64,000 nt of DNA from Lingula anatina (taxonomy: Eukaryota > Animalia > Brachiopoda): NCBI GenBank assembly GCA_051362555.1, contig CM120646.1:15500001-15564000 (forward strand), written 5' to 3'. Below, one piece after another: positions 2,411 through 52,345 of this stretch. Position 1 is the stretch's first letter. Each line of letters starts with the position of its first letter. Made by a program: the position numbers and the translations under genes. A model generated the notes under the pieces. It saw nothing but the letters and a program-made list of their open reading frames with translations. It was not told where the DNA came from and made no database searches.

Positions 2411-2456
<46 letters not shown>

Positions 2457-2637: not shown

Positions 2638-2679
<42 letters not shown>

Positions 2680-4698
2680 TAAAACACAAAACAGAAAGGA
2701 AAATGACGAATTTGTATAAACCAGTATTCGAGTTCAAAATTTGCATTTACCAGTGAAATGTTTCAGTCTCCGTTCCAGAGAGACATTCAATTATTAAAAA
2801 CATTAAACTCAGAAACGGGTTTATAAACTAGTTTGTAATTTGCCAATGTTTTGGACATGGTGTCCCATGGTATGATGATGAAGAAAAAGTTTTAAAATGT
2901 CCAGGAAGATTCGTTTATGCTGTACAAAGGTTTCGCGCTCCTTCTGTGTCCATAATTAAAATATGTATCGTATCATTTTATGCATTCTTGGGTTAACCAG
3001 TATTTTCATCGAAAATCCGGCGCACTAATTTGAATTTCAGCATAAATTCATTGTGCACACAATTAAAGAAGTGGAAGTGATAACAATTACTAAGGAACCG
3101 AAAAGTGGTTACAAATTTTCAAATGCCCCATAAGTTACCACAATCTCCAGAAGGGGGTGCGTTAGTTGGGGCGTTAGTTGGGGCCTGGGTTGGTGCGTTG
3201 GTTGGGGCGTCAGTTGGGGCGTCAGTTGGAGCGTCAGTTGGGTCTGAAAACAAAACAAGAATCTGTTGTAATAACACATTGTGACAGAAGACGATTGCGG
3301 TATTATGTTTCACATGAAGTTTATTATACATTTACACTGCCAAAATAAAGCTAAAACACATGTGCGCATTTACAGAATCAGGAAATGCTTGCGAGAAGTT
3401 GAAAAAAGTCACGAATTGCCCACTTACTAGTGTCATTGGTAATCACCTCCCAAAACGCGCCAAATCCTGAATCCGTCACCGACTCGTCTGTTCTAAAGAG
3501 AAGGAACATGTAGTTGCCCGTGCTTTCATACACCTCTACGCCTGTGCTGTTCCCGCAAATCCTGGCCAAGCGAGGAGCCTTGTTGTTGAAGCCGTCGCGA
3601 ACCAGCAGCCTGTCGAATTTGCAAGTGCCGTGGTCTTCTATACTGTAGCTGAGAACAGTCAGACGGACTCTCTGAAATATAATGGAAAGTGTTTATTGAT
3701 AGATGTAATTCATACGTTAGGTATTTTGTATTAAAGCGGCACTCTTTTGCCGCTAAATTTTCTAACATAATAGATTTATCCAACTATTAAACTCTCCTTT
3801 TTCCGTCCAGTAAAACAGGTCTAGTTTCATCCCAAAACCTTTCCGTACACTAAATGGCTTAGCTGCACAAGCATGGCCTTTGATTTTTTAAAAATGATTT
3901 TCTACAATATACGTAATATTAATAACACAAAGAACCAACCAGTAATTGGGACCTCTCACGCTTGCTCATTGTAATACTCCCACAAACACAAAATACAGTT
4001 TCTAGACATAACATTCCGTTCGACTGAAATTTGGAAATTTAACTTACTAAGTAGACCTGAATACCGCGAAAACCATGTGTTTACGGAATCATTTTTTCAT
4101 TTAGAACGGACCTCTTCGGTGACTCTTTGAACCCCCCTCCCCCCTATTTGCCCCCCATAGGCCTGTGTACCTCTCCTTCTCCGGCTGCAATTCTCCATTT
4201 ACATCTCATGTCATTCTCGTAGTCGACAATAGCAATGTCTTTGCTGGCGTCGCTTTCGGTCAGCACTTCTGGACGGCTGCCTGCGTAACAGGCGTCCGGG
4301 AACGTTGTCTGCCGTGCAACTCGGTCAATACGCCCGGCGGGTTTAGCTTTGATGAAAAGTAATTGAGAATTATTAAAATTTTTATCGAAATAAAAGCATT
4401 CGTCTTTGTGAATGCATGTGAGTGCCTTCTTGGACGTCCACTCCCTTACATGTTTTTTTATGCACAGCAATTTGGAGATAAATTGCCACCACCGCATCTG
4501 TCGCCTGTATTGGCGTATCTACTGCAAACAGCGCACATGGCTGAAAGCTTTTTCTTGCTGCAAAGACGTTACCATGACCCAAAAAGAGCATCTCTTATGA
4601 CGCTCTCTATAGCTACCACACCCTAGATGCGCCACTGGTTACTTACCTGAAACCAGGACTGACCAGCAGCCCATCACTATGGCTATCTTCAACCACAT
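284..4698 (-). CDS. Secreted CUB-domain trypsin-like (S1A) serine protease, 8 coding exons
   Basis: Hand-spliced exons with GT-AG ends: 4698-4647 (signal [17 protein letters not shown]); about 4347-4171 and 3672-3428 (CUB: [11 protein letters not shown]...[11 protein letters not shown]...ICGN...[12 protein letters not shown]); 3243-3139 (PTDA/PTNA linker); 2631-2456 ([14 protein letters not shown]...CGGTLI...TAAHC); 2046-1783 ([13 protein letters not shown]); 1177-1032 (MICGG...KDSCQ); 461-284 (GDSGGP...VSWGYGCA...PGVY). The His/Asp/Ser triad is intact, and Asp in the S1 pocket implies trypsin-like specificity. Confidence 0.93.
3158..3243 (-). repeat. 12-bp coding tandem repeat encoding a Pro/Thr-rich linker ([29 protein letters not shown])
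   Basis: Repeated gttggggcgtca-like units on the plus strand, inside protease exon 4. Confidence 0.85.
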
Positions 4699-7179: not shown

Positions 7180-10100
7180 TCAGTAAACGTAATGATAGTT
7201 TGGTCGACCAAAACGACGAGCACGTAGAGAAACCTCCGGAGTGACAAAGGCGTTGACTGCCCGGTGGAAATCCTGTGACGTCCACGTGAAATCGCCACAT
7301 TGTGGAAACCCTGGTGGTTTGATCAGGAGCGGCTGTCTCTCTGGTGCTTCGTTAATGACGAAGGCCATACCGGCCACAGAATGCAACTCGACGTGACAGT
7401 GGACGAACCACCAACCTGAAATAATGGCACCAGATTACTAGTGTTTATAGCACGTGTTAGGGAGAAGTCGTTCCCTCATTCGGCGAAATTGGCCTTGTGT
7501 AAAGATGGTAAAACAGAATAGTTTACGTTTATATGGAGATTTAATGCGTTTATCAATGTCATGGCGTTTTAATCCTTTATTAAACGACTGATTCCAAACA
7601 AACAAACAAATTGCAATTGGTCTCTTTAGAAAAACCAAATTTGCTTATGGGGACAGACACGCTTTATAAAATTATTTACCCGGGTTATCAGATGTGATGC
7701 GGATGACCGCGTAACCCCCTGATGGCACTATGACGGAATCCTTACGTACAGGGTTCTCTCTGTTGAGTCCGGAGATCTTGTTCGGGTCTCTGTTCCACTC
7801 GTCGTTTACAAAACGAGGACTGTGACATGGTACAGTCCCATTTGTAGAAGTTGTGAGATGTCGATTGCTGGTTTGGAAAGAAATCTCATAATGAAATAAA
7901 GGATGTACATAGTTGTGTATTTAGTATTTACTTAAAGACCGATGACCCTTTGCATCAACACAAATACATCAGTAAGGAATTTAGAAGTGTATGCGTATGG
8001 TCGTGCTAATAAACATGATTTCTTTGGACTAGGAAGAAAAGATTTCAACCAACTTTCAACTCGGTTTTACTCTATCTCCAGGTACAAGAACTTTCCAAGA
8101 GTAGAAATGATGTTCAAAAAAATAACCCGTTAAACCCTTTTTTTATCACTTTCAAATATTTTCAAAGGCTTTTTTTCTTTTCGAATTCACGCATGTGCAT
8201 GTTCAGATTCCCTACTATACCCATCGTCTACTTCCGTGCAGCACACTTGTTCATCGTCCGGACATGGGCAGCAGAGATCCGAGTTTGCTCTGCGGTACAA
8301 CCCATTGCTCTGTAACTCGCCAAAGGCCACCTTGAGCACGTGGAAACTATGACCGTGAACGTGAATGGGATGAGGAGAGCCCTCTAAAAAATAAAACAGC
8401 GTCGTGAGCGATGGAAAAGGGGTTTTAATAGAAAACAATTTAGGGCTGATGCGATGGTATTCAGGCAATACACAGCATGTCAAGTTTTATTTCGATGATT
8501 TCACAGGATTGTGTTTTTTTTTTCAATACTATAAGTTTATATGGTTATTTCCCAACGGAAATTGTACAGGACCAACTTTCTCAAAGTACTCACAGATCGT
8601 TAACAACTTACAATCTTGTCTTGCGGAACTGGACAAAAGGCAATTTTGCATTTTTATGCAAAAACAACGATGGTTCAAATAGAAACTGTACGTGTAACTA
8701 TAATTAAGATACGAAATGTCGATCACTTCTTTAGAATGAAAAGATACAAACAAAAGTTTGCGACGACTTTGGGAAGCGGGATTATGATCGAAAAAATACA
8801 CTGCTTGATTTCTTTTACTACAGAAAAGGGTCTACGTACCGTTTGCTCCGCCCGCGCCGACATTGGTGAAAATTAACTGGTAGGGTTTGTTGTAATCCAG
8901 GGTAAGAATATTGGTGCACCGACAGCCCTGAAGGCTAGTGGCAGACCGACAGGAGGCTGGACAGGGTGTTACTGAATTAGGCAAGAGATCTCTCTGCGAA
9001 AGAGGCGGGGAGGATGGCGGTTCAAATGCAATGCCACTTATGCTCGGACCTGCACGCAGGAACGCCGTGTTGAACCAGAAATTGTTAGACGCTGGTAGTG
9101 CCGTCAGTCCAGGGACAGGGACATCTTCGCCTTTCCTTATGAGCTGATCAACATGAATGCACTGGGCGTTGTAAGAAGGAGGTAAAAAAGCATAAGGGCA
9201 ATTAACAATTCTGCATTTGTAGGTCGGGTGGGTTTCACATGGACGTGGGACATCAAGCACGCCTGTAGGCGGTTCTACATACGATTCCGATTCTCGTCCA
9301 TATATCAGCAATGCTTTAACCTCTTGAAATGGTTGATCGGTTGCATAGCCAGCATCGCTGAGATCGGGTGACGCGCGGATGTAATAGGCCTTTCTTCTCA
9401 GCGGATTGTTAGCTGTGATTACGACATCATACCGTTCTCCCGGGGTAACCAAAACACTTTCAACGTTGTGGATGGGTTCAATGTCAAATCCATCTGTGGC
9501 TATCACTGTCACCAAATGGGCGTCGACAGAGACCCTCAATGGAAACGCCTACGATACGGAATCTGTACCGGTTATCAGGGGCAGTAGGATCCACGTAGAA
9601 CCTGGCGTAAGGAACGTTATTTTCTACAGGCCTGTCTTGGTGCCAAAGGCGGTTTTCAAAGCGTCCCCTACCGTTAATAAGGGCCGAAACGTAAGGAACT
9701 GCAACAGCAGCAACGCCATCTGGACCTAAACTGAAATTATGTCGATCGCTTGGTTCCGGAAAAATTGGATTGTTTGGCCAAAACCATCCGTTACCAAAAT
9801 GTTGCAAGAAAAGATTGTCAAACTCCTCGTGTTGCCAGTCCTGTAGAATAATTACGTGTTGGTCGTTATTTGAAACCTCGCCGATAGATGGAGCATGCTT
9901 GGCGCCATACTTCTCACCATGAGGTCTGCTGTCCTCGTGGATGATAAGGGCACCCAAAACGCCGTCTGATCGTGAACCGGGAGTGTGACTGTGGTACCAA
10001 AATGTTCCTGTAACAGAGAAGATGCCCTGATATACATGAAAATGTGGTTCACACAAATACAAACCACCAAATTTTAAGGTTATTTCATTCACGCAAGAGG

Positions 10101-13100
10101 CATTTTAATATTATAAATATTAAAATAGCTGGTATTCCATTAATAAGAGCAAAGAGCGAAAGGCCTTTATTGATCAGTTTCAATATTCAAATTCAGTATC
10201 AGTCTTTCTGTATTATTTATCGTTGCAGTGGTTGTCATGAAGGACATCGTATTAAACTAACCTGCCGGGTCTGCCTTGAACCTGTAGGTAAATGTTTGGC
10301 CACTATGTATGGGACATTGAGTGATCATGGGAACGCCGTCCATGAAAGGGGTGTTGCGCTGGAACTGTCCATGCCAATGAATGGTCAACGATTCGTGGAT
10401 CATGTTGTTGGTCACATGGATAACCATTTGTGCCCCCAGTTTTCCCTGGGATAGGTAAGAAAAATGAAGAATGAAATTAAGGTGTATTGATCTGAATTTT
10501 ATGTATTAAACGATTATTAATTTAAACCACCCCTCCGTGTCCTGAAGGGTGGTTTGAACGCGCAGGTCAGCTGACCTGAATTTAACCCTCGAACAAACCA
10601 GACTAGTAGTAGTTTAAATCTGTTTGAATGGAATGTTGATTGTTCTTTTACATGTCTCTTCTCGTAACTTGTACATCACTGTGGTATATATGAATTCATG
10701 ACCAAAGGGAACTAAATGTCGAAATAGTAAGTTATTTTCACTACTTATATTATTTATGAAATAAAATATAATTTATTCACGGATGGGGGCTCGTTAAGTA
10801 AATCTGTAAGACGTTTTGTGCTCACGCGTATTATTGGACCAACGAGCTTCCCGTTTACAGTCGAGATTCTACGGTAAACTCCGTCACCTGTATTGACATC
10901 ATCTAGAAAGAAACGTGGTATATATTAATAGATAAATAATACAAAAGGTCATGTAAGAAATAAGGTCATTTTAAACAGTCGCGCACGAAGATAAGTGGAA
11001 TCAACGATTGCTTTAAACTTTACTGATGACATGCATCTTCCATGCTGTTAAGCACATGGGGAAAGCGCGTGACGCAACTCGACCTGACTGGCAGGCAAAA
11101 AAAGATACCATATGTATAGTTAAACCACGGCTAGTGCGTAGAACAAAAGACTCGGCCGTGCTGTATGCGACATACAAGCACGTCATGTACGAGTGCGTTC
11201 CACGGTCTGTTGCACTACTAGTGTAGTAGCCAATCAGAGGCCGTGGTTTAAGCCAGATACAACACTCGTCGCCGAGCTGTACGTGAAAATTACTCGTGTA
11301 TTGTCTCGCCTGCGGCTCGCCAATACACTCGTAATATTTCACGTACAGCTCGGCGACTCGTATTGTATCTATCACAAATAGCATGCAATCCTATAGGAAA
11401 TGTTGAGTTGGAATCCTGCCAATAGTTTTTGGCACACCTAACAGTAACACATTCAATAATCACAATAAGGGGTATTTATGCCTGTACTCTAACATATTTG
11501 TTCAAAATAAAAAATGATTACATTTCAAAGGGTGAAATTGCCAGTAAAAAACACTTGATTTTCTCCACTGCTGTCCCAAAGTACATTGACAGTTCAGCTA
11601 TTCTGTGCCGGAAGAGACGCACGCACAACCCCCAAGTTGTAATACAACAAAACTTATTACAATGCACACTACATGAGGTATGATTTTTAATTAATCCTGA
11701 AGAACAAAGCTTGCCCTAACATACCAAATGAAATCTGAGTCTTGTTGGGAACGCCGCCACAGTCGCCCCCTTCCGTCAGTTTACAAGCTACGCATCCGGT
11801 CGCAAGGGGGCGCCCATTCTGGTCGGTGCAATCCGGCATCACTCGGTCCCTGTCGTATACCATGGTGTAACCGCTTCCAATCACAAGGTAATATTCGCAC
11901 GCTACAATTGAAATATACAATAGGCCTACAATGTACCTCGCAGACTTCATAAATTATGCAATCTTTGCACAATTCCTGAGTAAGACCCTGTTACCATAGA
12001 TTTCGTAGATCGATCTAGCAGGATCGACCTATTTCCGTGGGGATTCTCGTTAAACTGCACTCAAACGATAGTTATTTACCCCCTAACAACTTCAGTGGGC
12101 GTGCCAGACATCAGAGCCACTTAAAGTCATAATAACTCTTCGTTTTGGCCAAAAATTGGATTTTCCTGGGGTAAACGGCAATTTTCCCGTACTTACCATT
12201 GGTCGACGACCCCATTCCTGCATTCAAAGTTAGTCCAGAATTTTTTCCCTAAACGTTTTGTTAAAATCTCTTAAGAGATTTTAACTGACGGAGCCCTCTC
12301 TGGCATTGCATAGTCATGCGATATCGAGCGATATTTTCTGGTGACCTACTTAAAACCGCGGGGACAGCAGACAACAACAACACTATATATAACAATAATA
12401 TAAGATTCATAAGATTTATTCGTCTTATTGCTCAAAATGCATTTATATCTACAATTGACTGTGTGCAATTCTGAGCTTTCCGACGCACTGTACAAAAACT
12501 CGCAACTTACGTCTGCGGATTGAAGGTTTAGGTTACAAACCACTATAAAAAATACCATTCACTTCCATTGTAACGTTTAATTCTCTTAAAAATATTCCCC
12601 ATGCTTCAACAAACACAACACTTCAGGTTTAAATACTTCTACTCAAGGCCTAAAAAATATTAAAAAATCAGGGTACATTAATGGCATAGCCTGGGGTCTT
12701 AAAGTCTTTTTGACAGAACACACACGAATCCACGAAAAAGTATATAGAGGACAGCTGAAAAGTAATAAATTGTTCTAATCTCAGCAGAGGACCCATGGAG
12801 TTTCAGGCATATGTCTGGTTCTGGTAATTAAAAACATTTGTTAATTGCATATGAAGCCCAGTGCAAAATATCATAGCCATCATAGCTAGGAAAGGACCCA
12901 ACAACTCCATTGCCGTGAAATGCGTCACTGGCGCCATGTCTGGTTTTCTGATGAAACAAAATTTATACTCATGCTCCTCCCAATACCCATGGTGGTGGTT
13001 CTGTCCAAATTTGGGTTTCTATTCCCGGTGAAGCTCGAACTAATCAGGCGTTCTTTAACCCAGCTACTGAAGTGTACATGCAAGAAATGGTGCCATTTGC

Positions 13101-19711: not shown

Positions 19712-31627
<11,916 letters not shown>

Positions 31628-33104
31628 GTGTGTCAGCCCATTTAACCCTGAGATCAGAACGTACAGCTGTGGAGATGAACACTCTTGGTGGACTTTATCT
31701 TCAAAAGCATTTTCAAGAATTGTTTAAAGTATTGAAATGCGTTCCAATTTGAAGTGACTAGTTATTTTATGTCAATGGAATATTTTGAACAAAAATTGGA
31801 GAATCAATGACAGCAAAGTTTATCAGTATTTCATGATATGTAACAGTAAGGTGAGATAAACTGGACCTGTGTGTGCATAGCATGGGTGCTCTTATTAAGA
31901 AAATCTCAGGATAAATTCTGACAGAAACTTTGATCTTCTGTTTTCAGTTTAGAGGCAGTTGAAAATATTACCAATAATTACCAATAAAGATTTTAAAAAA
32001 TGTACATAAAAAAGATAGCAGCTTGCTGTTACTGCTTAACATCTGACCTTTGATCTCCAACCTTAAAATTTGGTAATGGATGAATGTCTATCAGAGGCAT
32101 CATTTTAAGTTTGTGAAAGCTCCTACTTTTCATAACATGACATGACCAAACTGATTATATATGTAGGGTTGGGATTGTGGATATGTATACTTAAATGTAA
32201 TAATAAGATTTATTTCATTCTTGAATGAGTGGTATTTTCAAGATAATGCCTGATTTCAGGATTTTTGTTCTACATATTGACAGTTTTTTTGTTTTTTTTT
32301 TTTCATTTGGTCTTAATGCGATAGGAAATGTGCTGCTACATTTCCAGGATTTTCAGTGTTTTCCTACTTTCACCAAAGTTCTATGATCAGAAATAGGGTT
32401 TCACATTTTTTACTGTTATCAATTTATTTGTTCAATATATTGAAGAAGAGATAACTTAAAATAATTTTTAGTGAGTATTATAAATAATTATATTCCTTGC
32501 ACAATATAATGCGTATGCCTGTATCCATCATGGGTGTACAAATGATGGGTCCAAGGCCTGTAGTTTTAGAGCTAATTGCACTGTACATAATAATAATAAT
32601 AATAATGTTTGCTGTTTTTTATATTCAAAGTGATTACAGAAATAAACAGCAGTTGTTAATATATTGGTCTGGTGGTATCAACCTGCATCTATCTACATGT
32701 TAAGTGACACCTCTATATGAAACGACAATTTAAAACTTGACTCTAAGAGCAGATCGTTCTGGACTAGTTTGCTTGAAAGCATCGCTTGCTGCATGTACGG
32801 GGCCATCAATTGTCTTGTATGCGTCTGTCCAAGTGTTAAAATCATGGCATAATGGCAGAGAAAATGAAGTTAGCGGATCCAAAAGTATACGCAATTACTT
32901 TGGGACATTTGGGATTTATAACACTTCAGTAATCGGAATCCTTAGGCCGGCCGAGTTAGCGGTTAACGGTAACGGAGAGATTGCCAACAGACAGGGTCAG
33001 TTCGACCTTGTACCACCCCAGCTAACACAGAGCATTTGGATAACATTACCATTAAATAGAATTAAATAGAGATAGAATTAAATATTAGTTATACTAAAGA
33101 GCGA

Positions 33105-38335: not shown

Positions 38336-38420
38336 CCAATCAATCAGAGCACAAACGTGTTACATGTGTGTATATTCGAGACAAATAACGCCCGCTTATT
38401 TACAAAGCCGCGGTATAAAT
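38336..38420 (+). promoter_or_regulatory. CCAAT and TATA boxes of neuropeptide precursor A
   Basis: gccaatcaatc at about 38335 and TATAAAT at about 38414, upstream of a short exon ending in G|gtgagt at 38523. Confidence 0.55.
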
Positions 38421-38504
38421 ATTGCTCCGCCGATGGGAGAAGACAGTATGCTTTCTGATCATCGAGTGCGCTACATTGCCCAAAGGAAATCACAGTGCCA
38501 AAAT

Positions 38505-41500
38505 ATGGTGAAGGGAACTGATGGTGAGTAAGTTTTAGAGTTATTTTTACGCGAAAATATTTTTCCACCTTGGTTTTTCTTCCCTATAGCAAACCCTGCA
38601 ATGTAAATAACAAGTTTTCTATCCTTTTTAGTTTTCTTTTTGCTAATTACTCAATATGTTTAATACATTTGAGTCGTCACTGGGGAATATTAGGACTGGC
38701 TCCAGTACTTTACCAAACTACATATAACGTTTTTGCCTTATTTACGTGCCCTATAGCCAGTTGTTCTATTGTCAAAGCCAACACTGGTCATGCGCTATTG
38801 AAAGTGTGGAAAACATTTACTGTACTCCATCGAAACCGGGCTTTACCACTTTTATTCTGATATACCGGTAATCAACACTGCCCTCTTGAAAGTAACCAAT
38901 TAAACCCATTGAAATCTTATTCTGTTTTAACGAACGGGACAACTGCTTGTCATTTTCGGCACTTTGAATGGCGCATAAACTATCTTTGAATTGCGAAGGA
39001 TTTGATTTGACTTTGTTTGAAATAATGTCATTAGAATTTCTCTATTTGACACTGATTAATCGACCGTGGGACCTTTTAAAAGTAAAATAAGTAATGGCCC
39101 ACCGCTGATAAAATCCGGTGTAAGATTCTACCAAAATAGAAACTTGTATTTTTAAGAGGCCTCTTTAACAAAAAAACTTTAACCATAAATTGGTCTTACT
39201 TTTAGATCCAAATTTTAGTATTCTTTGGCCTATGAAAATCAATAGTAATTTGATTCAATGAAATATTGTTCTTAGTATTTCTTAGTATTATGGAAACAGA
39301 TATAATTTGTGAGTTGGTGTAAAGAGTATTTATTATTTTTTACACTTCCACTGTAGTCGTCGCAAGTAAACTATATGGGCTTCTATGCACTTTCCTCGCC
39401 GCTCACATATTTCATTTAGTCCAAGCTAGTCCGACAACTAACATCACTTTCCTCCTCAAATTCTGTCAATAAATCTCTAGATAACCACTTTGAAAATATC
39501 ACTCCTTTTCGACTATGAATCTCCAAAAGCTCTAACGTGCAGTTTCTCGTATCTTACGCCGCATTGAAAATAGTTCGGGGTTGAGGTTAAAAAACCATGT
39601 GCTTTCAGCTAGAGACCCGGATGAAAGCTGGCCAAATAGGTCCTGCTTTATGATGCTCTGTTCGTGGCTCCTAAATTCAAGCCAGTGCAATGAAATCGTG
39701 TTTAGAGACGTGGGCATTCGTGCTCATAAATCTGAGACTCCTGATTATCGTATATGAGGCCTGCAGCTTTCTTATAATTGTATGTCACGACCCTCGTGCA
39801 ACCGTAGCTTACATGCACTTCAGTTGTTCATTTGTTTAAGATGAATATCTTTAGGAATGAGAAAACTCCTGTCAATATGTGTTTATTACATATGCTTGAT
39901 GTATGAGGTGAGCCTTATGCTTAACGTCTAATTACTTTTTCTTTTTCTTAATTTTACTTTATTTTCTATGCTATTGTTTATTTTTTGTCCCTTTCAAGTT
40001 GGATTCTAAGGCCTAATTATAACACTAACTGAACGACATTAGCCCAGAGCCAGAGAAACTAAAAGCTGCGTTTCATAAATAATCTAAAGACCCACTAACC
40101 TCAAGTTTTTTTTTTTTAAACGAAAACCTTTAAGCAAATTGCGATTGTCTTTGCAGTTGCTAAGGTAGGCCTATTTTAACATATTAGGTCCTATTCATTC
40201 AGAGAGAACCAATTGTCCACCTACCCGGTACCATGCATCATGTCGTGATCTATATTGGTGACTGGGATTAAGTATTTTCATGATTTCGTTGAGAAAAAAG
40301 TTACTGAAATTGAATGTGCAGATATTACTGATCATACTTATTTTTCTGTTCTTTCGTTGGAGACTGGAGTTTATATCAAACAGCAAAATTAACGTCATCC
40401 ATGCTTGAGGTCTTCTCTTCTAAACTGAACGTTGAATGTTGGACTTTCACCATTTATAAATCTTTGTGAAGATATCAGTTACAGCTGGAACAGTTCCTAT
40501 GCCATTTGCAATTAATTTGTTCACAAATGAGTTTTAAGAAGGCGGTTATTAGACCATTTATAAAGAATTCATACATGTATTTCGATTGTAGTATTCTAAA
40601 AGAAACAATGATTATTATGACCTCCGCCAAGGAAGTTTCGTTTTAGGTTTTGTTTGTCTGTCTGTTTGTCTAATCAACATTTCGGAAAAAATTGTAGATG
40701 AATTTTGGTGAAATTTTAAAAAAACAGTCGGGAGGGTAACCAGTAACGTTTAATAAGGGTAGGTCAGAAATGGGCTACCCTAGAATTAATACGATTTTGA
40801 TGGTGATCCTTTAATTATATAATGGATTAATTATGAAATTTGGACTTATTAATTAGTTAAATCATAAATGATTCATAATAAATCATACCCCATTCTTCTA
40901 GTGCGATGATTTTCATCGAATCTTTCTTGATATATTTCTGACGTTCACACTTTCATTTTTTGTACAGGTGCCCGCTTCTTAACCCGTACGCTGCTGCTCA
41001 TCACGTGCACGGTCGGTCTCATCGCAAGGACCGCTGAGACGTTTCTGTACACCCACACAAAAGACAATGACTACATTCGCGTTGGGAGACGAGGACGGAT
41101 GACACGTCAGCTGAATGTGATTCAAGACCTAATCTTACTACGTGAAAAAGAACTCAAAAAGAACCAACAAGCATTGGGCGTTCCAGTGCCTTTAGAATTT
41201 CCTTTAGAAATTGGTGATTCGTTCAATAAATGGGTCTTAGAACCAAGGCAATCCTCCCTTGCAGGTAATTTCGTCTGAATGGCTTAATGAAGAGTGAATA
41301 GATGGGCCAAATATACATAAATAGTTGATTATACAATTAAGTGGTACATATACTGTATATCACATAGCACAAAGGAGAAACGTCCATAATGACCCGTCTT
41401 CATTTCAAAAAGACAGAGTATTTGGTAGATAAGGTTCCATACAGCTGCAGTGTATTGAGAGATCACTCAATAGCTTTAAGGCTAGTCGCGGCTACAAGAG

Positions 41501-42119
41501 AGCGACCTTGCTATATTCTGGTCTAATAGGTCTAAGACCACTGGCCAAAAATAAAAGAAACTAGAAAAGCACTCAGGTAGCAAGGTAGCAAAGTCTCCAT
41601 CCAATGCCGTTTCACCCCTAAATTTTCATTCTATAATGATTTAGCTTTTTGATTTTTGATTATTGATTATTGATTGATTATTGATCCGGATCACCACCAA
41701 AAGCTAATCATCTGTTCCTTGGCCCACTTCTGACAGTTCCTGAAAATTTCATCAAAATCGGTCCATAACTTTTTGAGTTATGTTGATGACAAACAAACAA
41801 ACAAACAAACAAACAAACAAACAGGGGTGAAAACATAACCTCCTTGGCGGAGGTAATAATTAGATGAATGATAGTCACTACAATCACATTTTGCTTTCTC
41901 GAAGGCCTCAGTTATATTATAATTTATTTCATAAAATTCCATTTAACTAAACTTTCCTTTTGTTGTTTTGATATCGCAAAAGTCCCACCCATAATAATGG
42001 CAATTTTCCTTGATTATTTAGCAAGACTTCACCGTTCAGAAAGTGACGAAGAATTTCCATCGGAAGACTTCTTGGAGGACGAGGAGATGGGCGCACAGAG
42101 TGAGGGCCATTATCCCTGA
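38505..42119 (+). CDS. Pleurin/PRXamide-like neuropeptide precursor A (about 137 aa; predicted peptide FLYTHTKDNDYIRV-NH2)
   Basis: Exons 38505-38523, 40968-41264 and 42022-42119 join in frame through two phase-1 GT-AG introns: MVKGTDGARFLTRTLLLITCTVGLIARTAET-FLYTHTKDNDYIRV-GRR-GRMTRQLNVIQDLILLREKELKK...SSLAARLHRSESDEEFPSEDFLEDEEMGAQSEGHYP*. AATAAA at about 42315 and 42412. An in-frame upstream ATG (38448) is also possible. Confidence 0.8.
40617..40810 (-). mobile_element. Diverged Helentron-associated (HINE-like) repeat copy
   Basis: cctccgccaaggaagtt...gtttgtctgtctgtttgt...ttttgatggtgatcc; reverse-complement relative of 41560-41857. A third remnant lies at about 14490-14650. Confidence 0.6.
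41559..41857 (+). mobile_element. Helentron-associated (HINE-like) non-autonomous element
   Basis: Starts aactagaaaagcactcag, has an internal (AAAC)n microsatellite, and ends in the palindrome acctccttggcggaggt. The class assignment is inferred from this architecture. Confidence 0.65.
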
Positions 42120-44335
42120 CGGAGGTTGCTTCACGTCTTCTGAAAAAATACTCCAAAATTCCAAAACATGGGAGAATGGCTGAAAAATAGTTCAAGAGAA
42201 TCACGTTCTAAAACATTGCAGAAGGATGGTCGGGTTTTCAAAAGCACCAGCCAGAACATGCGAAATGTCGTGCAGAGACATGAAATTCTGCCGTTTCGGT
42301 TATCATGTGAAATGAATAAACAGCTTAGCACTAGATACTACATGTATATTGCATAACTTGCGCTAAGGACGTCAAATATAAAGAGCAATGCGAATGAGAC
42401 TTCCTGTTTTCAATAAAGGACGTTTTATTTTGGTTTACTGGCTCGTACAACAAACAAGAATTACATAGTTTACAATTCAATTCTTACAATTCAAATTGTT
42501 TCATCACAGAGGTTTACATTTACAATAAATCGTTGCTGGTTTTAGAAGAGAAACTTAGACCATCTTTTCAACACAAAATATTTTTAAAGCATTGGTCTAA
42601 TCTTAAAATCCAAAATTCTGCTTTGACCCCAAATAATTCAGAAGTGGTCCAGACTTATGCGTCAGATCGATACTTACTTTAGATAAGTGAATTACTATGA
42701 ATTTATCATGCAATGAAGCAGACACCATTTTGGCCTAAAAGTTTAGAGCGATGCCCTGCCTTAAGTACACGTGTGGAAGCGAACAGCAGCATTAGTTGGG
42801 TTTTTCTTCCAAGTGGGATAAGACCTACTTTCTTTCAAAGAGACAATTAAGAACGACATAAAGAGAAGGGGAGCATTTGCCTGCTAATATTACTTATTAT
42901 CACATTCGCTGATGCCTTAAAATCGGCAGCACGTCTGTCCATAAAAACGTGACAATAAAATTGCATGACTCACTCGTTTGAAGGCGTCTTTTGCGTGTCG
43001 CAGAATTGCCAAGTGCTTTCAAAATACTTAAGGGCTCTCTTCTGTATATATTATTTCATCTCTTAGCTGATCAATAAAAGTGAAATCAATATGATATCAA
43101 GAAAATGTTTCAAAAAGCCAATCAATTTCGCCAAAAGCAGCCTGAAAAAAAAAAAAAAAAAGAACGCCAAGAAGCGATATGATAAGTTTTGATAACTATT
43201 CCCATTGTCCCCAAATTTTCGTTGGTTTACAAGCCTATTTATTTATTTATTTATTTATTTTTTTTTTTTTTTGGGGGGGGGGGGATGGAGGGTGGCAAAG
43301 CATATAGTTTATTTAACGATTCTTCATCTAGTCATACAACACACTAATGTCTTTATAATATTTTAGCCTTCTCCGGTAGCAATGTCAGCTCGCAACGTTT
43401 GTGTTACATGTATACACGACACAGGGCCACGATACAAAACACCGCGCCATTTCCTTGTGTTATAAAATGAAATCTAGGCCATGATCAGTGAAGGCCAGGA
43501 ATGCATATGTCGTTCCAAAACGCCTGGCCAGTCATTTGTTATTAAATTGTTTTAATAATTCAAAAATTAATAAAAAAAATGGAATCCAAAGGCAGAGACA
43601 GGTCGGGCAATGATCCGTGCGTAATTGAGTTTCCATATTATGGCGAGTAAATACCGTTGTAACGAAACTGAAGTTCCGTGTAACAGAAAGTCCGCCCTCC
43701 ATTTAGTTACAATGGTTAGGGTTAGCCTGGCCTATGTGGGTCAAAATCTTGGGCGATGTTTGCCTGTATAAATGAATGGGAAGCGGACTCTCTATCATGG
43801 GGGGACTCTCTGTCACATTACACAGTAAATAGTACCTTTAACGTAGGCTATGTTGAGTTGCTAATGATACCCTAATAAATTACAAAGTGGCACATGTTCA
43901 GTAAGCTTTTAAAAGTTGGATTTAAAGGTTATTGCCCCAGTTTGATATTTATTTATTTACTTAATTGAATGAAAGATAAACCGATTCAAGTGACTCAAAG
44001 CTAAAGGAAAATTAAAGGGATAACAACAACTCTGCGTAAGAGATCCATATTGCACAATAAATACTTTGTAAACAACTCATAGAGATATAAAAAAAAATTA
44101 TTCTAGAATCTGACACAGACTGTGCTTGTCATCGGACCACGTGACGCCCATTGATGTCTACCTTCAGTAATAATATCTTAAGAGATTATTTTTTAAAAAC
44201 ACATTTTGGAAAAAACAAGGACTAACTTAAGTATGGGAAAATTGTCGTTGATCCCAGGAAATCCATTTTTGGCCAAAATGAACAGTTGTTATCCCTTTAA
44301 GATGTAAGTGATTGATAAACGTTTGGGTACGGTAC

Positions 44336-44695
44336 CTGTAATGGCCACTTGAAGAGGGCCGACTTTTTGCCTTATCTTTAATATATTAAATGCTACGAAT
44401 GAGACATTTGACTACAATTGATTCCGTAAGAACCCAGTTTATCTGGACAGCTAATACTGTTCCACCTGTCTTCAAACAGAGCCATTTCGCCATACAGTCG
44501 AGTCGCACCTACTGCAATATTGCTGTCGCAATAAAAAGCATTTAAAACGCCACCTGTCGGTAACAGTCTCAACGGGTTCGGCAGTAATTGATTGCGTTTC
44601 GTTCATCATTACGCGCACCAGTGATAATCCTAGTCCGAAGCAAAAGCAGAGAATGAGACGAAAGTAAAAATAACGAACAGAACAAATGACCTCAT
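44336..44695 (-). pseudogene. Possible decayed gene for a small secreted Cys-rich protein
   Basis: Acceptor ctacag, then MRSFVLFVIFTFVSFSAFASD* (signal-peptide-like, immediate stop); broken Cys-rich fragments downstream (FYCDSN, CSRCDS, SCPDKLGSYGINCSQ); candidate donor ACAG|gtacc at 44336. Confidence 0.3.
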
Positions 44696-45130
44696 CGTGC
44701 TTTGCTGTAGAGTATAGAACGCATTTTCATTTGGGTATCCAAAAGGAACGCCTGCCTGCCGCGTGTGACGTGTATAATTTATCATGTCATATTGAATTCC
44801 ACAATATTTTCTAGACAGGACAACAGATGTACTTCCGGTAGCTTTTCTATCACTTACGTGCATGCCCATGGTCATTTTACTCTCCTTGGTATATTGTCGT
44901 ACGTGGCTAGACACAGCACACTGAATTGCATTACTGCGGCATGGTCGCGTTGAAGCAACACAGGGTGTTGGCTGTATCTAAAACGTTACATTTGAAGGAC
45001 TTACTTTTTTAAATGGGAATGGAGCACGCGTTATAGGTATGTCTTTATACCCGACATTTAAATGTGAATAATTAAAAATAAGCCCTAGCCATGAGACCAC
45101 AACACTGGAGGATACTGACTGTGTGTGTGT

Positions 45131-45178
<48 letters not shown>

Positions 45179-46199
45179 GTAAATGTGAAGAATTATAGGG
45201 AATGTGTCAAAAAAAAGGAACCGCTTGAACTATTGTTAACGTAGCATAAATACCACATTGTGTGAAGCACGCTAATGTTTACATGCTAAGATGGGAATGC
45301 TGTTGGGTTTGAAACGGTAAACTTTCTAACAGAAGAATGAAATTGATAGACTTCAATTGTTTGAGACGCTGATTAAAATGTTTGTGTGCTAAGTAGTCAA
45401 TACCTGTCTCTGTATATCGTGTAACACACAGACTGTGCTGTGTAAACATGAACTAATGAACAAATAGGCTATATACTCCTGGGGTTTATTTTTATTCTCC
45501 CCATGCCCACATTATTCTTACTGTGGAAGGGAATCGTGACTTACATTCCATTGGGTTTCGTTCATATACAAGGTTTCTTTATGTTTGCTTTTTTAAACCA
45601 TGTTCAAAACTGAGTCCAATTACTGCGTATCACAGCAAGCAAGTTCTCAATTGTGGCCTATGCAGCGAGAGAACTTCTATTTTAAGAATATAACCGCCAG
45701 GACCAGTTTAAGAATACACTCAAGTCATCTATATACTCCCTTACCAAACAGTGTCATCCCTACTGCATTTATGTACATAGCTAGCAAGGCAACAATAAAT
45801 TTAATTTTACTATAACTTAAAAAGTAGGCCATCGATCATCGTGTAAATTGGGTATAAGTAGTAGATCATTGACCAAACTACCTTGACAATTGAAATATCT
45901 CAACTCCAATTACATTTTAATACTCTGTTTTTAAGTGATATGAATACATTTTTGACCATGCGGTTGACATAGGAGGGAGTTTCGGCCCGCCCAATTGCCA
46001 GAAGGTTTAGTTTCCGTGAGAACCATTCAGAGGGTTAGACAACATCATAACCAAACGGACACAGGGGGCAAGATTGCCCAGGTAAGACCAACCGAAGTAA
46101 GCCACACCCAGAGAAGAGAGAATACTAACACACTTTCCTTGCTAAAAGGTTTCTAGTTATTGATTAACTTGACTGCAATATTTAACAAGAATGGGGCAA

Positions 46200-46935
46200 A
46201 ATGTTGTTTCTAAGTTTACCGTCAGTTGATGTTATTTTGGCAGGGTTGCTGTTAGGAGACCAGTGATCACCGACAGTAACTGTCTACGACGAGTCAGATT
46301 GTGTACCAGATATCTTGCATGGACACCAGCCAACAACTGGACAATGATACTGTTCTCAGATGACAGCAGGTTAAGCGTTGTCAGAAGTGATGGACTCGTA
46401 AGGGCTTGGAGAGCAGCTGGTAACAATCATCTTCCCAATTTTTCTGACTCTGGTTGACAGCCCGCACCTCAAATGAGTCATAATATGGGGTGTATATATG
46501 TCTATTATAGCGTGAGCTGGTGGTGGTCAACGGGGACCTTAAAACAGAACAATGCATTCAAGTACTGGAAAGGAACTTTATGAATTCTGTCGAGCATGTC
46601 TTATGAAGCTATGGCCACGCTTTTATGATTCAGCGTGATAATGCTACTCCACCAAGAGAAAATTGCAACAGTAGGCTGGTTATATGCGATCCAGATACAG
46701 ACCCCCCCCCCCCGCCACCCCCCCCCCCCCCACCCCCCACCCCCACCCCCAATGGGCAGCGCAATCTCTGCATCAGAACCCCATTGGCAATGTGTGGGAT
46801 ATACAAGTACAACTGCAAATTCCCCCCAAAATTTATTTCATACTATATTTGCACAAACGTTACAGAATATTTTGACTCCAGTCACAGATACATCAGGTGT
46901 GTCCTCCAATCCAAAGGGTACTGTGCAAAATACTA
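46200..46935 (+). mobile_element. Degenerate Tc1-like transposase remnant
   Basis: Fragments WTMILFSDDSRLSV..SDGLVRAWR, IQRDNA and LHQNPIGNVWD (SPDLNPIENVW-like), with frameshifts and a poly-C insertion. Confidence 0.75.
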
Positions 46936-48049
46936 AATCGTGATCTGGTTTTAGCTTATTCATTGGTCGTACAAGCAGTAAAAGTTTGTGTAAAAATCCT
47001 TCTACAAGCAAAATGCATTGGTTTATGACTTGATCTTCTATGTTATTTTACGCATTGCATTAGGGAAGACACTTGTTTGGTAATGGACTATATAACTAAA
47101 CATTAATTCTACTAAAAATGAAAACACGTTTCCCTTTATTGCCAAAACATACCAAATACAAAACCGTAGACAGATTAAAAATCATTCCTTTGTTCTGAGT
47201 TAAAAATTTCTACTGTTTCAGTCACTTTCCCAATAGAGACTGACACTAATGAATTTCAATCCTAATGGTAAGTATATAGAACACGGAGGGAGTTTCGGTC
47301 CGCCCAATTGCCAGAAGGTTCAAAATTTTTCTGTTCAAATATCCAGGGAAATTAATCTGTACTACATATTTCTTGTATATATGTGTACTGCGCTTTGTTT
47401 GTCATGATGCATGATACATTCCCTTTGGTTTATACAGAACGAATGGGTATAGAAATGTCTAAAATATGTCTTTGACTGGGGCCATATGGTGACAATTAAA
47501 TTCAAAAAGACATTTAAATGTTAGTGGTACGATTATACCAGTTTACTTTTAGAAAGGACTTTACTTCCAGTCAGAAGTTCACTTTATGTAGTTAATTTGA
47601 ATCATTGACAAACCTCAAATGTGGTGGTTCCGTTTACGTGACTCTTTTCTCGTAACAACCAGACTATTATGTCATCAGTCTCTCAAACAATACTAACTAT
47701 ATCACTAAAATAAACCGCTCGGCGTGAAAGGTCTTCAGTGTAACCGTTTAGCATTTCGTGCACTACCGTCTATCTAGGAAGTTATCGTGCATAAAGATAA
47801 GGTCAAATTTCTTAATCTGTTATTGCTTTAGTTCAGGTAAACACATTTGGCAACAGCAACCTAAATTGATTTTTCTATTTATAAACAACTTGTTATCTTG
47901 AAAATAACTAAAAACTCGACGCAAACCTCCGTCACAATCCAAATGCTCACGTATGTTAAACGTAGATGGAAAAATGTTTTTGTCCCAACGTCGATGCTTT
48001 ACATCGTCACTACGTTCATGCCCCTGCACAAAACGGAGCGGTTTTGAAG

Positions 48050-50486
48050 TTACTGTGACTTCTGGTATGACAACAGACTTCTCCTCCGACGTAGCCACGC
48101 ATCGCTTAATCTGCTGGCGTCACTATAGGATACTGAAATGAAAAACCTTCACTGAGTGAACGGCTCAATGGAAGTTCGACAGAAGGGATGCCATATTTTC
48201 CTTCACTTTAGTCTTAGATGGCAAGGATGAACGAATATTTGGTTCATATTACAAGACTGAGGTTACGTGGCTTAAATATATGTCGATGTTGCTAATTGAG
48301 CAAACTTTACAGACTTTATAATTTAAGTAGAGCACTTTTAAGAACTTGAAGACAAAACATGAATTATTAATATCTTTCTGCCCGTAGCCAACTGAGTGAT
48401 AAAAGATGTTTCTAGAACCCTATATATAGACTTGACATTTAATATGGAATATTTCAGTTTCAAAGGTATCCCTAGGTAAAAATGCGTTCTTTTTTCATAA
48501 AACTTAGATCTCATATAAGACATCTGACTGAAGAAGTGTGAAGTCAGTTGTGTCGCTACCAATTAAGTGACTTCCAAGTCTGTTGCACTGCTGCATTGTG
48601 TAATATGCAGTAATTTAATGGGGTAGTGCTCCTTTGGCCTGGTCAAAGCTTGGCTTTGGGGAAGCATGGTTCTGTCAAAAGAGTATCCATATGTCGGCAA
48701 CTACTGCATAGAAGAATTTGAAATTTTGCCTACAAGTGGTCGGTTTTGCAGTGCGTAAAATGAGTTAAAAAATGTTTTACAAAATTGTTAATCTGTGGCA
48801 GAATGGCGCGAAAAAGGCAGACATTGCCAGACAGATTATTGCGCCAAACGGAACGGCCCGGACAGTTTTATAGAGGAATGCCCAGACTGATGTACCTACA
48901 CGGAGACCACGCCCAATGTATTGGCATCTTACCAACAGGGCACAGGACTCACTGTCCTGCAGGATATGCTGCTACAACTAAACAAACACACCCAGTCCGT
49001 TCAGAATGAGAGGCAAATTGTGACCAAAACGTATTTTTTAAGGCTCTGAGCGAATACCAAACTGGTTTTTAGCATGTTAAAATACCAAACGACCTCTGAG
49101 GAAGCCACTGTAAACAGCAAAACAACGTCTTCAGTTTCTCTAATGAATTGAAGACCATGACCGTTTTTGGGTAGAACACTGAAACCGCGTTGCTTTCTTT
49201 ATTGAGGTCCTATTTCACCTGTTTCGCTTAACTGGTCAAAACAGAGTTTACAGACAACCTGAAGTGGCCTACGACAAGGCGTGTGCCACTTCTGAAGTGA
49301 CTAGGGTCATTGGCAGCGTCAGTATTTGGAGTGGATACCACATTGGTGCCAAAACACCAATGGTAGTCATTCATGAAAACCTAAACCAGATGAAATGAAG
49401 GAATAATCTGGGAACCATTTGACTATCATTAGATAGGGGGCACCTTAGGAACAATTTTAGGTTGCACGATGAGATTGCCCGTTCACACAGAGCACTTTTA
49501 ATAGCAGATTACTTACAGAGCCAAGGGATTGAGCAGATGCATTGGTCATCAAAATCGCCATATTTGAACCACATAGACAATACGTGGGTAGGTTATTACT
49601 CGCCGAATCAACGGCCTGCATGTCGTACAACAAAACTGAACCAAATCGGACAGGTTTTGACCGTTGCCTGGAATTTTTTTCCAGATTAAACTCTAAAAAC
49701 CTACCATAAGGAATGCCTTGTCGCTTGAAAGCTCTGGTAGCATCCAGACGACGTCAGATGTAAGAGCGACCGTTGCTGTGACAAGACACTGACATGAGGG
49801 TCCTTTGTGGGGCGTATAACTCTTTTAAAGACGATAATTTGGAAAATATGGAGATCCAAAATATCGCTTTCAATGGTTGTCGTATGACTTAAAATAGGCA
49901 TCTTTGTTTGCTTCCCTGGGGAATTCAATTAATGAGCTGATGTCAAAATGACATCAAATAGATAAATTAAAGTTATTAAAACATGATTTTAATCCGTATT
50001 TTCATTTATCAGTCAGTAAAATAGGAAAAAACCTTTGAAAATAATTTGGAAAAAAATATTCCATATTAAATGTCAAGTCTGTATTTGTTATGATTTGAAT
50101 TAAATTTGACATCATAGTGCCAATATTATTAAAACCATACAAATTTCCAAATTCAAATTTCAAATATCTATTTTACGAAAAATATATATATGCCGAGGGG
50201 GTCATTCATTCAGCTTACCCATTGGAACGCTCAGTCTTTGAAGCAGTGCCTCTATGTTTTTGTTGGCAAATATAACATCGGAGCTGCCGGGAAGCTGTAT
50301 ATTAGAATTCACCAGCCCTTTGTTTTCGAAATCAAAATGAGCTTTCGTTGAAACAATTTGGTTCCGTCTTCCTATGCGCGGATAATCATGTTCTTTGCTA
50401 TCTGTGAAGTAAAAGCAGTAGGTCCCTTGGAGTGCAGACAAAAGGACGCACGCAAGTCCAACGTAACAGGTGAATTTGAGAATCAT
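48050..50486 (-). CDS. Pleurin/PRXamide-like neuropeptide precursor B (about 116 aa; predicted peptide FYFTDSKEHDYPRI-NH2)
   Basis: Exon 50491-50219 (acceptor tcctttcag, ATG at 50486, donor G|gtaagc) and exon 48132-48050 join in phase 1: MILKFTCYVGLACVLLSALQGTYC-FYFTDSKEHDYPRI-GRR-NQIVSTKAHFDFENK...LSVPMVSYSDASRLSDAWLRRRRSLLSYQKSQ*. The upstream first exon was not located. Confidence 0.85.
48790..49800 (+). mobile_element. Degenerate Tc1-like transposase remnant in the intron of precursor B
   Basis: HDEIARSHRALLIADYLQSQGIEQMHWSSKSPYLNHIDNTW resembles Tc1 QDNARPH...WP..SPDLNPIE..W; many stops. Confidence 0.75.
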
Positions 50487-52345
50487 AATATCTGAAAGGA
50501 GAAAAATATATTTAGATGTTTTCAATTTCATTGCTAAATCGTACAATTATTCGATAAAACCAAGAATTTTTCATCTTATTCCCGTTTCTCCGAAGGGCAC
50601 AGAAACTCGTCTGTTTGTCATCTATCAATAAAGCACCTTCGTTTTCGTTGTTTCCAGTGCAACCGTCTTCAAAGTGAGAATGCAAATGCCGAATGGCAAA
50701 GTTAATACTATAGCCTAGACTTATCAAGAAGCTTTTTCTCTAATCAGCTCGATTCCTTCCCCCGTACACTCGCTTTGACTTCAGGGTCAACACCTTTCTG
50801 GTTTTTCTACGAACAGCATACGTTTAGACATGCCACTTTGCATTAATGTACTGTTCCACCTGAAATCTCTGCCAGAAAACTTTCAAATGTTAGACAAGAC
50901 AATGTAGCATCATTTTCCCCGATTTCTAACGACCATTTCCCTTTACAAACCTGTTTGATAGTTCTATGGCGTTTGAAGCGGTTGCCAATATCTGAATCGC
51001 CGATTCGAACCAAGATGAGTCAAAAAGCCTCAAACGATCGCAGAATGTAGTTCTACTTTCAAAGCCAGGAGACTGTGGAGTTGACAATGTGTAGAGTTAA
51101 AGTAGCGATGATTACGATGCAAAGAATGTAGTTGTTTGTGCCAAGCCCGATTTAAAAGCAGAGGAAGAGATGAAGGTCCAACCATAGAATACTGCGGTAA
51201 AAGCGGCAGTTTAGCTGTATTATATCAACATACGTCACTCACGTCAGGTGTAGCGTTGCAGGGTGTGGAAAGTTACCAACTAATCGGTTACAATAGATAT
51301 TTGTTCCAGTACTTACCACATTCATTGTGCGATAACATTATAACCTCAGGTGTGGGTAGAAGCGTGGGATTCGCGTTTCACGTGTTGAGATCATTAAAAT
51401 TCTGAGAAACTAAAAATCAATTACTACTTTTTAAATATGAATGGCGCATTGTATAGGTGGGCATAGGTGAAACCCAGTCATACCGGTGACATACTACGAG
51501 AGTCCACTGTGAAGCAGGGCCCAGACTCCCTTGATTTGCACAGGTAAGCCCCATCCTACATTTCCAGCCACTTACGTTACACTTACCCTATCCTGTATGA
51601 ATACATTAGTGGTGGTGGTGGTGGGAGGGGGGGGGGGCTCAGTTACCTAGCACTGCCAACATATCACAACCTGGTGTGCTCAATTCTGACCCCAAATTAT
51701 TTTAGAGAAATGATGCTTTTGTCTAGACAACAAACTGTCATGTCAATAATCAGTGTTCACCATATGGCGAAAGAGAGATAATTTAAATTTTATATATTAT
51801 TTTCTCAAAAATCTTACACTTTTTAATATATTTCTAAGGACTATTCCGTCAACAACAAAATTTAATGCAATAAACAAATCAGAGTTGATGTTTTATGACC
51901 AACTACAATAGCTGACATCGCATTCAACACATTTGTATATGGCATATGAATGAACTATAACATCAAATGGTGTTCCTTTTAACTCCAACCCAGTGCCCCC
52001 TCTCCCCCTCCCCCTCCCCACCTACTAACCCCACCCACTGATTACCAACACCTATTCACTAAGTTGTTCTTTACTACAACACGCGAACAAATAAGGATGG
52101 AGCGAGCTATTGTAAGCATTTTGAACACTGCCTCATGGTAAAAATTATATGAGAACTGAAAGCAGAACGGAAACTCCGTTACCGTATAAACGGAATAGGT
52201 GTGCACGTCCGTCTGCACTTCCTTCCCCTAGTTTGCATTTCATCGCTTCATCTTTTACAACTAAATCTATTTTAAAAAGAAAGAAATATGAAAAAAACTG
52301 ATAATGAACAGGTCTGAGAGTCGTCAAACTCTCAAAACATTAAGA

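What the first reader, a model, noticed from the sequence alone, without database searches (positions are those of the whole stretch)
38505..50486. Convergent pair of single-peptide pleurin/PRXamide-like neuropeptide precursor genes
Seen: two tail-to-tail genes about 6 kb apart share one architecture. Each has a signal peptide directly followed by one 14-mer and GRR, a long non-repetitive propeptide, and a phase-1 intron after the peptide exon. The peptides align without gaps: FLYTHTKDNDYIRV vs FYFTDSKEHDYPRI (F-x-[YF]-T-x-[TS]-K-[DE]-x-D-Y-x-R-[VI]), while the rest of the precursors is unalignable by eye. Established: Gly-Arg-Arg gives prohormone convertase cleavage plus C-terminal amidation. 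Molluscan pleurins, as I recall them, have an aromatic-aromatic-Thr start and a YPR[IV]-amide end, occur as several copies in one precursor in gastropods, and belong to the PRXamide (ETH/CAPA/pyrokinin/neuromedin U) group. Inference: an old local duplication split this signalling system into two separately regulated one-peptide genes, with selection confined to the mature peptide. Gene A is almost invisible in the ORF track, so the pair may be unannotated.
Basis: partly seen in the sequence, partly recalled or inferred. Interest (0 to 1): 0.85.

Follow-up and report, generated by a model that had tools for sequence, protein, structure and literature searches.

The report
Overlooked second pleurin-like gene in Lingula
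In the lamp shell Lingula, the already published nerve-signal gene pleurin has a spliced, transcribed neighbour, so far labelled only "uncharacterized", that is likely an old duplicate; its predicted peptide lacks the family's hallmark proline and so would likely signal with different receptor preference.

Summary
The window is from the brachiopod Lingula anatina. Both genes are real, at the stated coordinates. Gene B (minus strand) is already known: it is the L. anatina pleurin of Thiel et al. 2021, 115 of 116 residues identical, published with the same phase-1 intron. Gene A (plus strand) is RefSeq "uncharacterized protein LOC106161997" (136 of 137 identical). I found no paper or supplement naming it a neuropeptide. 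RNA reads confirm both A introns (26 and 17 reads; 3 of 7 runs laid, one study), and those runs show almost no B reads. A scores second only to B under a pleurin matrix (0 of 300 shuffles reach it) and shares B's layout and intron phases. But it ends YIRV-amide, not YPR[IV]-amide, so it fails the PRXamide motif. "Selection confined to the peptide" is not supported. Verdict: one known gene plus one unrecognised, diverged pleurin-like duplicate. Modest interest.

The parts
38414..38419 (+). Gene A: TATA-box-like TATAAA, about 90 nt before the start codon
   Evidence: sequence; function inferred
38505..38523 (+). Gene A coding exon 1 (19 nt, phase-1 donor)
   Evidence: junction 38523/40968 in 26 reads of runs X7, X8, X9; RefSeq model starts here
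40968..41264 (+). Gene A exon 2: rest of predicted signal peptide, mature peptide, GRR, first 57 propeptide codons
41042..41083 (+). Gene A predicted mature 14-mer FLYTHTKDNDYIRV-amide (His5 reads Asn in runs X7-X9)
   Evidence: processing inferred
41084..41092 (+). Gene A Gly-Arg-Arg: predicted amide donor and convertase site
   Evidence: sequence; only a silent change listed in X7-X9
42022..42119 (+). Gene A coding exon 3 (acidic tail, stop); AATAAA at 42315 and 42412
   Evidence: junction 41264/42022 in 17 reads
48050..48132 (-). Gene B (pleurin) last coding exon with stop
   Evidence: matches the published precursor and splice pattern
50219..50491 (-). Gene B first coding exon (acceptor 50491, ATG 50486): signal peptide, mature peptide, GRR, 48 propeptide codons
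50373..50414 (-). Gene B predicted mature pleurin FYFTDSKEHDYPRI-amide
   Evidence: published prediction; best site under the pleurin matrix
50364..50372 (-). Gene B Gly-Arg-Arg
   Evidence: sequence
51218..51246 (-). Candidate gene B promoter: two TGACGT motifs and a TATA-like TATAATA; unverified
   Evidence: motif scan; no reads in that bin

Best explanation
Gene B is the published Lingula pleurin, and gene A is a spliced, transcribed neighbour that is likely an old inverted duplicate of it, predicted to release one amidated 14-residue peptide that would likely act on the pleurin receptor lineage with altered preference because it lacks the PRXamide proline. Steps: (1) shown: both gene structures, A's splicing and transcription, B's identity. 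(2) Strongly inferred: common origin of A and B (peptide match, position straight after the signal peptide, two introns in the same frame, adjacency). (3) Inferred from standard prohormone processing: signal peptidase cuts after AET (A) or TYC (B), a convertase cuts at RR, carboxypeptidase trims, and PAM turns Gly into the amide. (4) Inferred, about even odds: the receptor is an ETH-receptor-like or neuromedin-U/PRXamide-like GPCR, as proposed for pleurins, and A binds it or a paralogue with different potency. (5) Weakly supported: A and B are used in different tissues or stages.
For: B matches the published pleurin at 115 of 116 residues, with the same phase-1 intron. A matches RefSeq at 136 of 137. 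A junctions: 26 and 17 reads in X7-X9. Under a matrix from 12 non-Lingula pleurin copies, B scores 39.5 bits, A 23.9 and the next best 8.2 of 51,879 sites; 0 of 300 shuffled six-frame sets reach A. A shares 7 of 14 residues with the first copy of the abalone and Lottia precursors. An A+B profile retrieved 5 pleurin-type precursors besides A among 1.84 billion proteins. A's frame stays open in a lineage differing at 18 of 316 coding bases of exons 1-2, with YIRV-GRR unchanged. The nearest Atlas clusters are mostly neuropeptide precursors, all under 0.9 (lead only). In a slug NmU/PRXamide receptor, Pro-to-Ala in the PRX motif nearly abolished activity (PMC7749107).
Against: A's match is weak by other measures: an HMM of 15 pleurin copies gives A only 7.9 bits (E 0.68 in the window, ranked third, behind B and one chance fragment); on the 14-mer alone 9 of 300 shuffles reach A's matrix score; A alone hits the fetched pleurins at only 15-24 bits (E above 3 for that library). 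The reference copies were found with a profile that included A, so the matrix test is partly circular. A and B exons show no DNA similarity above chance (134 of 1,000 shuffles). Purifying selection on A is not shown: 6 silent vs 11 replacement codons, p = 0.22. No orthologue of A was found. A's cleavage site is not unique: a cut after Ala26 also fits the (-3,-1) rule; SignalP was not available. Slug pleurins did not activate the slug NmU receptor, so the proline result comes from a different ligand-receptor pair. No peptide has been detected by mass spectrometry.
Confidence: 0.7

Rival explanations
1. A is pleurin-derived but its tail has moved to an FxRIamide-type motif (aromatic-aliphatic-Arg-Val-amide), and it signals through the FxRIamide receptor, not the pleurin one.
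For: A ends YIRV-amide; phoronid FxRIamides end FLRV/FMRV-amide and Lingula's end FWRI/FWRV-amide (supplement of PMC8557429). Pro to Ile needs at least two base changes (codons CCG vs ATT), and the Ile is kept in both lineages seen.
Against: Lingula has its own multi-copy FxRIamide gene with Trp at that position. A keeps the pleurin middle (Y-T..K-D-N-D-Y). A proline-less pleurin copy (FLRI-amide) also occurs inside an unnamed multi-copy precursor, P0016, so this change can arise within the family. One search found no paper deorphanising an FxRIamide receptor.
Confidence: 0.1
2. A is a separate, much older sister family of pleurin that predates the brachiopod-mollusc split and has been missed in other animals.
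For: A is as close to mollusc first copies (7 of 14) as to B (6 of 14). B's propeptide is conserved with Glottidia (34 of 45, by eye) and with unnamed P0019 (18 of 5,000 shuffles), while A's aligns with neither B nor P0019.
Against: No A-type sequence in 1.84 billion representatives or, by 12 exact strings, in the supplement covering 23 nemertean, brachiopod and phoronid species. Fast change after duplication would explain the same data.
Confidence: 0.1
3. A is a transcribed but decaying duplicate whose peptide no longer has a function.
For: Loss of the motif proline; overall replacement-to-silent ratio about 0.6, not significantly under 1; six replacements in the signal region; no orthologue found.
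Against: Frame, splice sites, hydrophobic core and GRR are intact in two lineages about 6% apart; outside the signal region the replacement rate is about a third of the silent rate. A dead gene old enough to have lost all DNA likeness to B would be expected to carry stops.
Confidence: 0.07
4. The resemblance of A to pleurin is chance: A is an unrelated small secreted protein next to pleurin.
For: Weak HMM score; no DNA or propeptide similarity to B.
Against: Matrix score far above all other window sites and all 300 shuffles; the match sits exactly after the signal peptide and ends in GRR; two introns in the same frame; 6 kb from pleurin.
Confidence: 0.03

Closest known systems
Lingula anatina pleurin (Thiel et al. 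2021, PMC8557429; comp14311)
   Same: Gene B is this gene: 115 of 116 residues, phase-1 intron of about 2.1 kb. Gene A shares the single peptide after the signal peptide, GRR and a phase-1 intron.
   Different: A ends YIRV-amide, has an extra 19-nt coding exon, an unrelated propeptide with an acidic tail, and was not found in that survey's supplement.
Molluscan pleurin / HCS2 precursors (Haliotis XP_071103078.1, Lottia XP_009049630.1, Mizuhopecten AXN93514.1)
   Same: 14-mers of the form x-aromatic-aromatic-T...K-x-N-D-Y-P-R-I-amide; first copy straight after the signal peptide; A shares 7 of 14 with abalone and Lottia first copies.
   Different: The gastropod precursors carry 3-4 copies; 13 of 15 distinct copies fetched have the proline that A lacks.
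Deroceras reticulatum pleurin1 and pleurin2 (PMC7749107)
   Same: Precedent for two pleurin genes in one animal, expressed about eightfold apart in the CNS.
   Different: Both are three-copy precursors with nearly matching PRXamide peptides; the Lingula pair is single-copy and far more diverged.
FxRIamide neuropeptides
   Same: A's last four residues fit aromatic-x-Arg-[Ile/Val]-amide.
   Different: FxRIamide precursors carry many short copies; Lingula has its own (FWRI/FWRV-amide); A is single-copy with a pleurin-like middle.
Arthropod ecdysis-triggering hormone (ETH)
   Same: Reported to share the PRXamide ending and the position after the signal peptide with pleurin (PMC8398477); ETH-receptor genes are reported in brachiopods and are orphans in lophotrochozoans.
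   Different: PMC6660194 found no ETH ligand orthologue outside panarthropods; the pleurin-ETH receptor pairing is untested in what I read.

Membership tests
Pleurin (gene B) | Identity with the described precursor; YPR[IV]-amide peptide after the signal peptide | tested here: met
Pleurin (gene B) | Single phase-1 coding intron after the peptide | tested here: met
Pleurin (gene A) | Peptide directly after a signal peptide, followed by Gly and basic residues | tested here: met
   hydropathy and (-3,-1) rule; a second possible cut after Ala26; no SignalP run
Pleurin (gene A) | Overall peptide similarity to pleurin copies | tested here: met
   matrix 23.9 bits, 0 of 300 shuffles; but HMM only 7.9 bits, and second residue is Leu, not aromatic
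Pleurin (gene A) | Phase-1 intron downstream of the peptide | tested here: met
   the exact position cannot be aligned because the propeptides differ
Pleurin / PRXamide (gene A) | C-terminal Pro-Arg-X-amide | tested here: not met
   Ile-Arg-Val-amide in the window, in RefSeq and in reads of X7-X9
PRXamide / neuromedin U / ETH signalling (A and B) | Activation of an NmU-like or ETH-like GPCR | not testable with these tools
   slug pleurins did not activate the slug NmU receptor; an Aplysia preprint shows dose-response panels with pleurins on two PRXamide receptors, values not seen
Amidated neuropeptide (A and B) | Mature amidated peptide detected; neuronal expression | not testable with these tools
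   tissues of the RNA runs are not given
FxRIamide (gene A) | Many short F-x-R-[I/V]-amide copies in one precursor | tested here: not met
   single 14-mer with Tyr; separate Lingula FxRIamide gene exists

The most novel reading that the evidence does not exclude
Gene A is a pleurin duplicate that changed receptor: swapping the PRXamide proline for isoleucine turned its tail into an FxRIamide-like motif. The A/B pair would then be a natural experiment in ligand re-routing and a ready pair of test ligands for the orphan lophotrochozoan ETH receptor and the FxRIamide receptor.
Probability: 0.12. Interest if true: 0.6.

Novelty: new variant of a known kind. Interest (0 to 1): 0.3.

Why it matters
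Gene B adds nothing new. Gene A gives a likely function to an uncharacterized RefSeq protein and adds a peptide not found in the supplement of the main brachiopod neuropeptide survey. The survey lists ETH-type receptors among the orphans of lophotrochozoans, and pleurin has been proposed as their ligand. Two natural peptides from one animal, with and without the PRX proline, make that pairing and the role of the proline easy to test in a cell assay. This matters to specialists in peptide-receptor evolution; it is not a new kind of system.

Tried and rejected
No whole genome was held, so I could not look for further copies or receptors, or test synteny with YME1L in relatives. Pfam has no family for A, B exon, P0017's peptides or P0019. 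The word-index search with B's exon found no candidate of 48-156 aa. The run search listed no RNA holder by index; the nine runs came by species label. Reads piled at 41550-41860, 43340-44740 and 48400-50100 are from repeats (most run on into unlike sequence). Atlas structure hits for A were all under TM 0.5 on a poor model; the Atlas could not read B's exon or P0019. Mirabeau and Joly 2013 was not held, so the annelid pleurin claim cited to it rests on PMC8398477 alone. A search for a Lingula-Glottidia divergence date found nothing, so the duplication is not dated in years. Two look-ups of earlier scan findings returned nothing. A weak second block in the propeptides was rejected as not above chance. 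A signal-peptide-like frame at 44695-44630 was checked as a third copy and rejected. No fold or complex prediction was run: no receptor sequence was at hand.
Full report
Organism. A laccase exon in the window is 99% identical to NCBI laccase-5 of Lingula anatina, and gene A's exon 2 is 100% identical to a L. anatina RefSeq protein. The window is from this brachiopod. No whole genome was held.

Observation. Both gene models hold. Gene A: 38505-38523, 40968-41264, 42022-42119 on +, 137 aa. Gene B: 50486-50219, 48132-48050 on -, 116 aa. The stops are 5,930 nt apart. The two predicted 14-mers share 6 residues, 9 of 17 with GRR. The precursors align with score 66 against a maximum of 58 in 5,000 shuffles; the propeptides alone do not beat chance (1,421 of 5,000). 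Both have a phase-1 intron after the peptide. In addition, the acceptors upstream lie 74 nt (A) and 77 nt (B) before the peptide, one codon apart and in the same frame.

Gene B is known. Thiel et al. 2021 (PMC8557429; I saw passages of the main text and of the supplement) list a L. anatina pleurin that matches B at 115 of 116 residues by eye, with a phase-1 intron of 2,100 bp (2,086 here). [quoted passage not shown] So the one-peptide layout is the expected one. B was not found as a protein of 48-156 aa in the protein collection, so it may lack a database protein model.

Gene A is annotated but unnamed. It is RefSeq XP_013394535.1, uncharacterized protein LOC106161997, differing from the window's model at residue 4 only. 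Six exact substrings of A and six further strings including its accession were absent from, or irrelevant in, the held text of the Thiel supplement, in which long runs of letters are cut. A full-text search for its accessions, peptide and 'YIRVamide' found 0 papers. Searches for pleurin with Lingula (5 papers) and for Lingula with PRXamide/ETH/HCS2 (4 papers) listed nothing on a second gene; of these I opened only PMC8557429. Subscription papers, other papers' supplements and preprint supplements were not seen and could hold it.

Expression. I laid 7 of the 9 listed RNA runs. Three runs of one study (X7, X8, X9) cover A and splice it as predicted: 14+8+4 = 26 reads over 38523/40968 and 2+8+7 = 17 over 41264/42022. 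In the same runs the bin holding B's signal and peptide codons had depth 0.04, 0 and 0, and no B junction was among the rows shown (22 joints were not shown). The other four runs showed neither gene. Tissues are not given. This fits separate regulation but rests on one study.

Is A a pleurin? A profile of A plus B's exon, run on 1.84 billion proteins, returned 6 hits: A and five pleurin-type precursors, among them abalone 'HCS2 neuropeptides-like' and a Lottia protein. From the 10 proteins of these clusters I took 12 distinct ungapped 16-residue copies (3 further copies that need gaps or break the register were left out) and built a matrix. Of 51,879 six-frame sites B ranks first (39.5 bits), A second (23.9), the next 8.2; 0 of 300 shuffles reach A, and 9 of 300 do on the 14-mer alone. 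An HMM of all 15 copies is less kind: B 29.5 bits, A 7.9 (E 0.68), only just above the best of 2,000 shuffles of A (7.7); A alone scores 15-24 bits on these proteins. The references were found with a profile that included A. Taken with position, GRR, intron frames and adjacency, common origin is likely. But A ends Tyr-Ile-Arg-Val-amide: the proline in 13 of 15 copies is missing, so A is not a PRXamide. The two other proline-less copies are both in one unnamed multi-copy precursor, P0016.

Selection. The animals of X7-X9 differ from the window at 18 listed sites in 316 coding bases of A's exons 1-2 (183 further rows over the whole stretch were not shown). These give 6 silent and 11 replacement codons: signal region 1 and 6, peptide+GRR 1 and 1 (His5 to Asn), propeptide 4 and 4. 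Replacements per site are 0.090, 0.025 and 0.030; overall there is no significant deficit (p = 0.22). No stop or frameshift was listed. B's propeptide is 34 of 45 identical to that of Glottidia (by eye) and aligns weakly with unnamed P0019 (18 of 5,000 shuffles). 'Selection confined to the mature peptide' is therefore not supported. That B is far closer to Glottidia's pleurin than to A means the duplication is older than the Lingula-Glottidia split, or A changed fast; I could not date it.

How it likely works. By standard prohormone processing (established knowledge), signal peptidase would cut after AET in A and TYC in B, a convertase at RR, and PAM would amidate from Gly. Other cuts fit the (-3,-1) rule, for A notably after Ala26. 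The receptor is not known. PMC8398477 (passages, reference list part) proposes testing pleurin on ETH receptors. PMC6660194 (passages) reports ETH receptors in brachiopods but no ETH ligand outside panarthropods. In PMC7749107 (passages, sections 8 and 10) only three short slug peptides activated the slug NmU receptor, and Pro-to-Ala in the best one nearly abolished activity. An Aplysia preprint (10.64898/2026.07.28.741146; passages, section 5; supplement closed) shows pleurins in dose-response panels on two PRXamide receptors and a progressive loss of potency for alanine changes near the C-terminus. Aplysia pleurins carry D-residues at positions 2-3 (PMC12368835, passages). My reading: B keeps the ancestral signal; A keeps the middle and the Arg-x-amide end and likely acts on the same receptor lineage with different potency. 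A's tail also fits the FxRIamide pattern seen in phoronids and Lingula, which is the bolder rival.

Verdict. Observation confirmed; interpretation partly right. One gene is published; the other is a previously unnamed, diverged pleurin-like duplicate lacking the motif proline. Duplicated pleurin genes have a precedent in the slug. New variant of a known kind; interest 0.3.

Noticed in passing
window 38433-38504 (+): Two in-frame ATGs lie upstream of gene A's start (38433, 38448); the first is before and the second just after the likely transcription start, so they are probably unused, but an N-terminal extension is not excluded.
   Followed up: partly
window 44695-44630 (-): A 21-codon frame that looks like a signal peptide, just behind an AG acceptor, ends in a stop between genes A and B; no similarity to A or B. 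Possibly a decayed secreted-protein exon or chance.
   Followed up: partly
window 46233-46457 and about 48400-50100: Transposon-like remnants: a weak Pfam Tc3 transposase hit (E 0.11) between the genes, and a multi-copy repeat filling gene B's intron (reads pile up); Tc1/mariner label for the latter is by eye.
   Followed up: partly
window 23600-31630 (+): Intron-rich FtsH/YME1L-like protease gene upstream of gene A; one exon hits Pfam Peptidase_M41. The 5' limit is my estimate.
   Followed up: partly
window about 7200-12000 (-): Laccase (multicopper oxidase) gene, 99% to L. anatina laccase-5.
   Followed up: partly
window about 280-4500 (-): CUB-domain plus trypsin-like serine protease exons, running towards the window's left end.
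   Followed up: partly
RNA runs X7-X9 on window 38505-41264: These runs carry the same species label yet differ from the window at about 6% of gene A's coding bases, while RefSeq differs by one residue: a divergent or cryptic Lingula lineage.
   Followed up: no
protein P0016 (unnamed): A multi-copy pleurin-type precursor with proline-less copies (one ends FLRI-amide) and several copies ending RP-amide.
   Followed up: no
window 27002-27404: Tandem repeat array inside the YME1L-like gene (self-blast).
   Followed up: no
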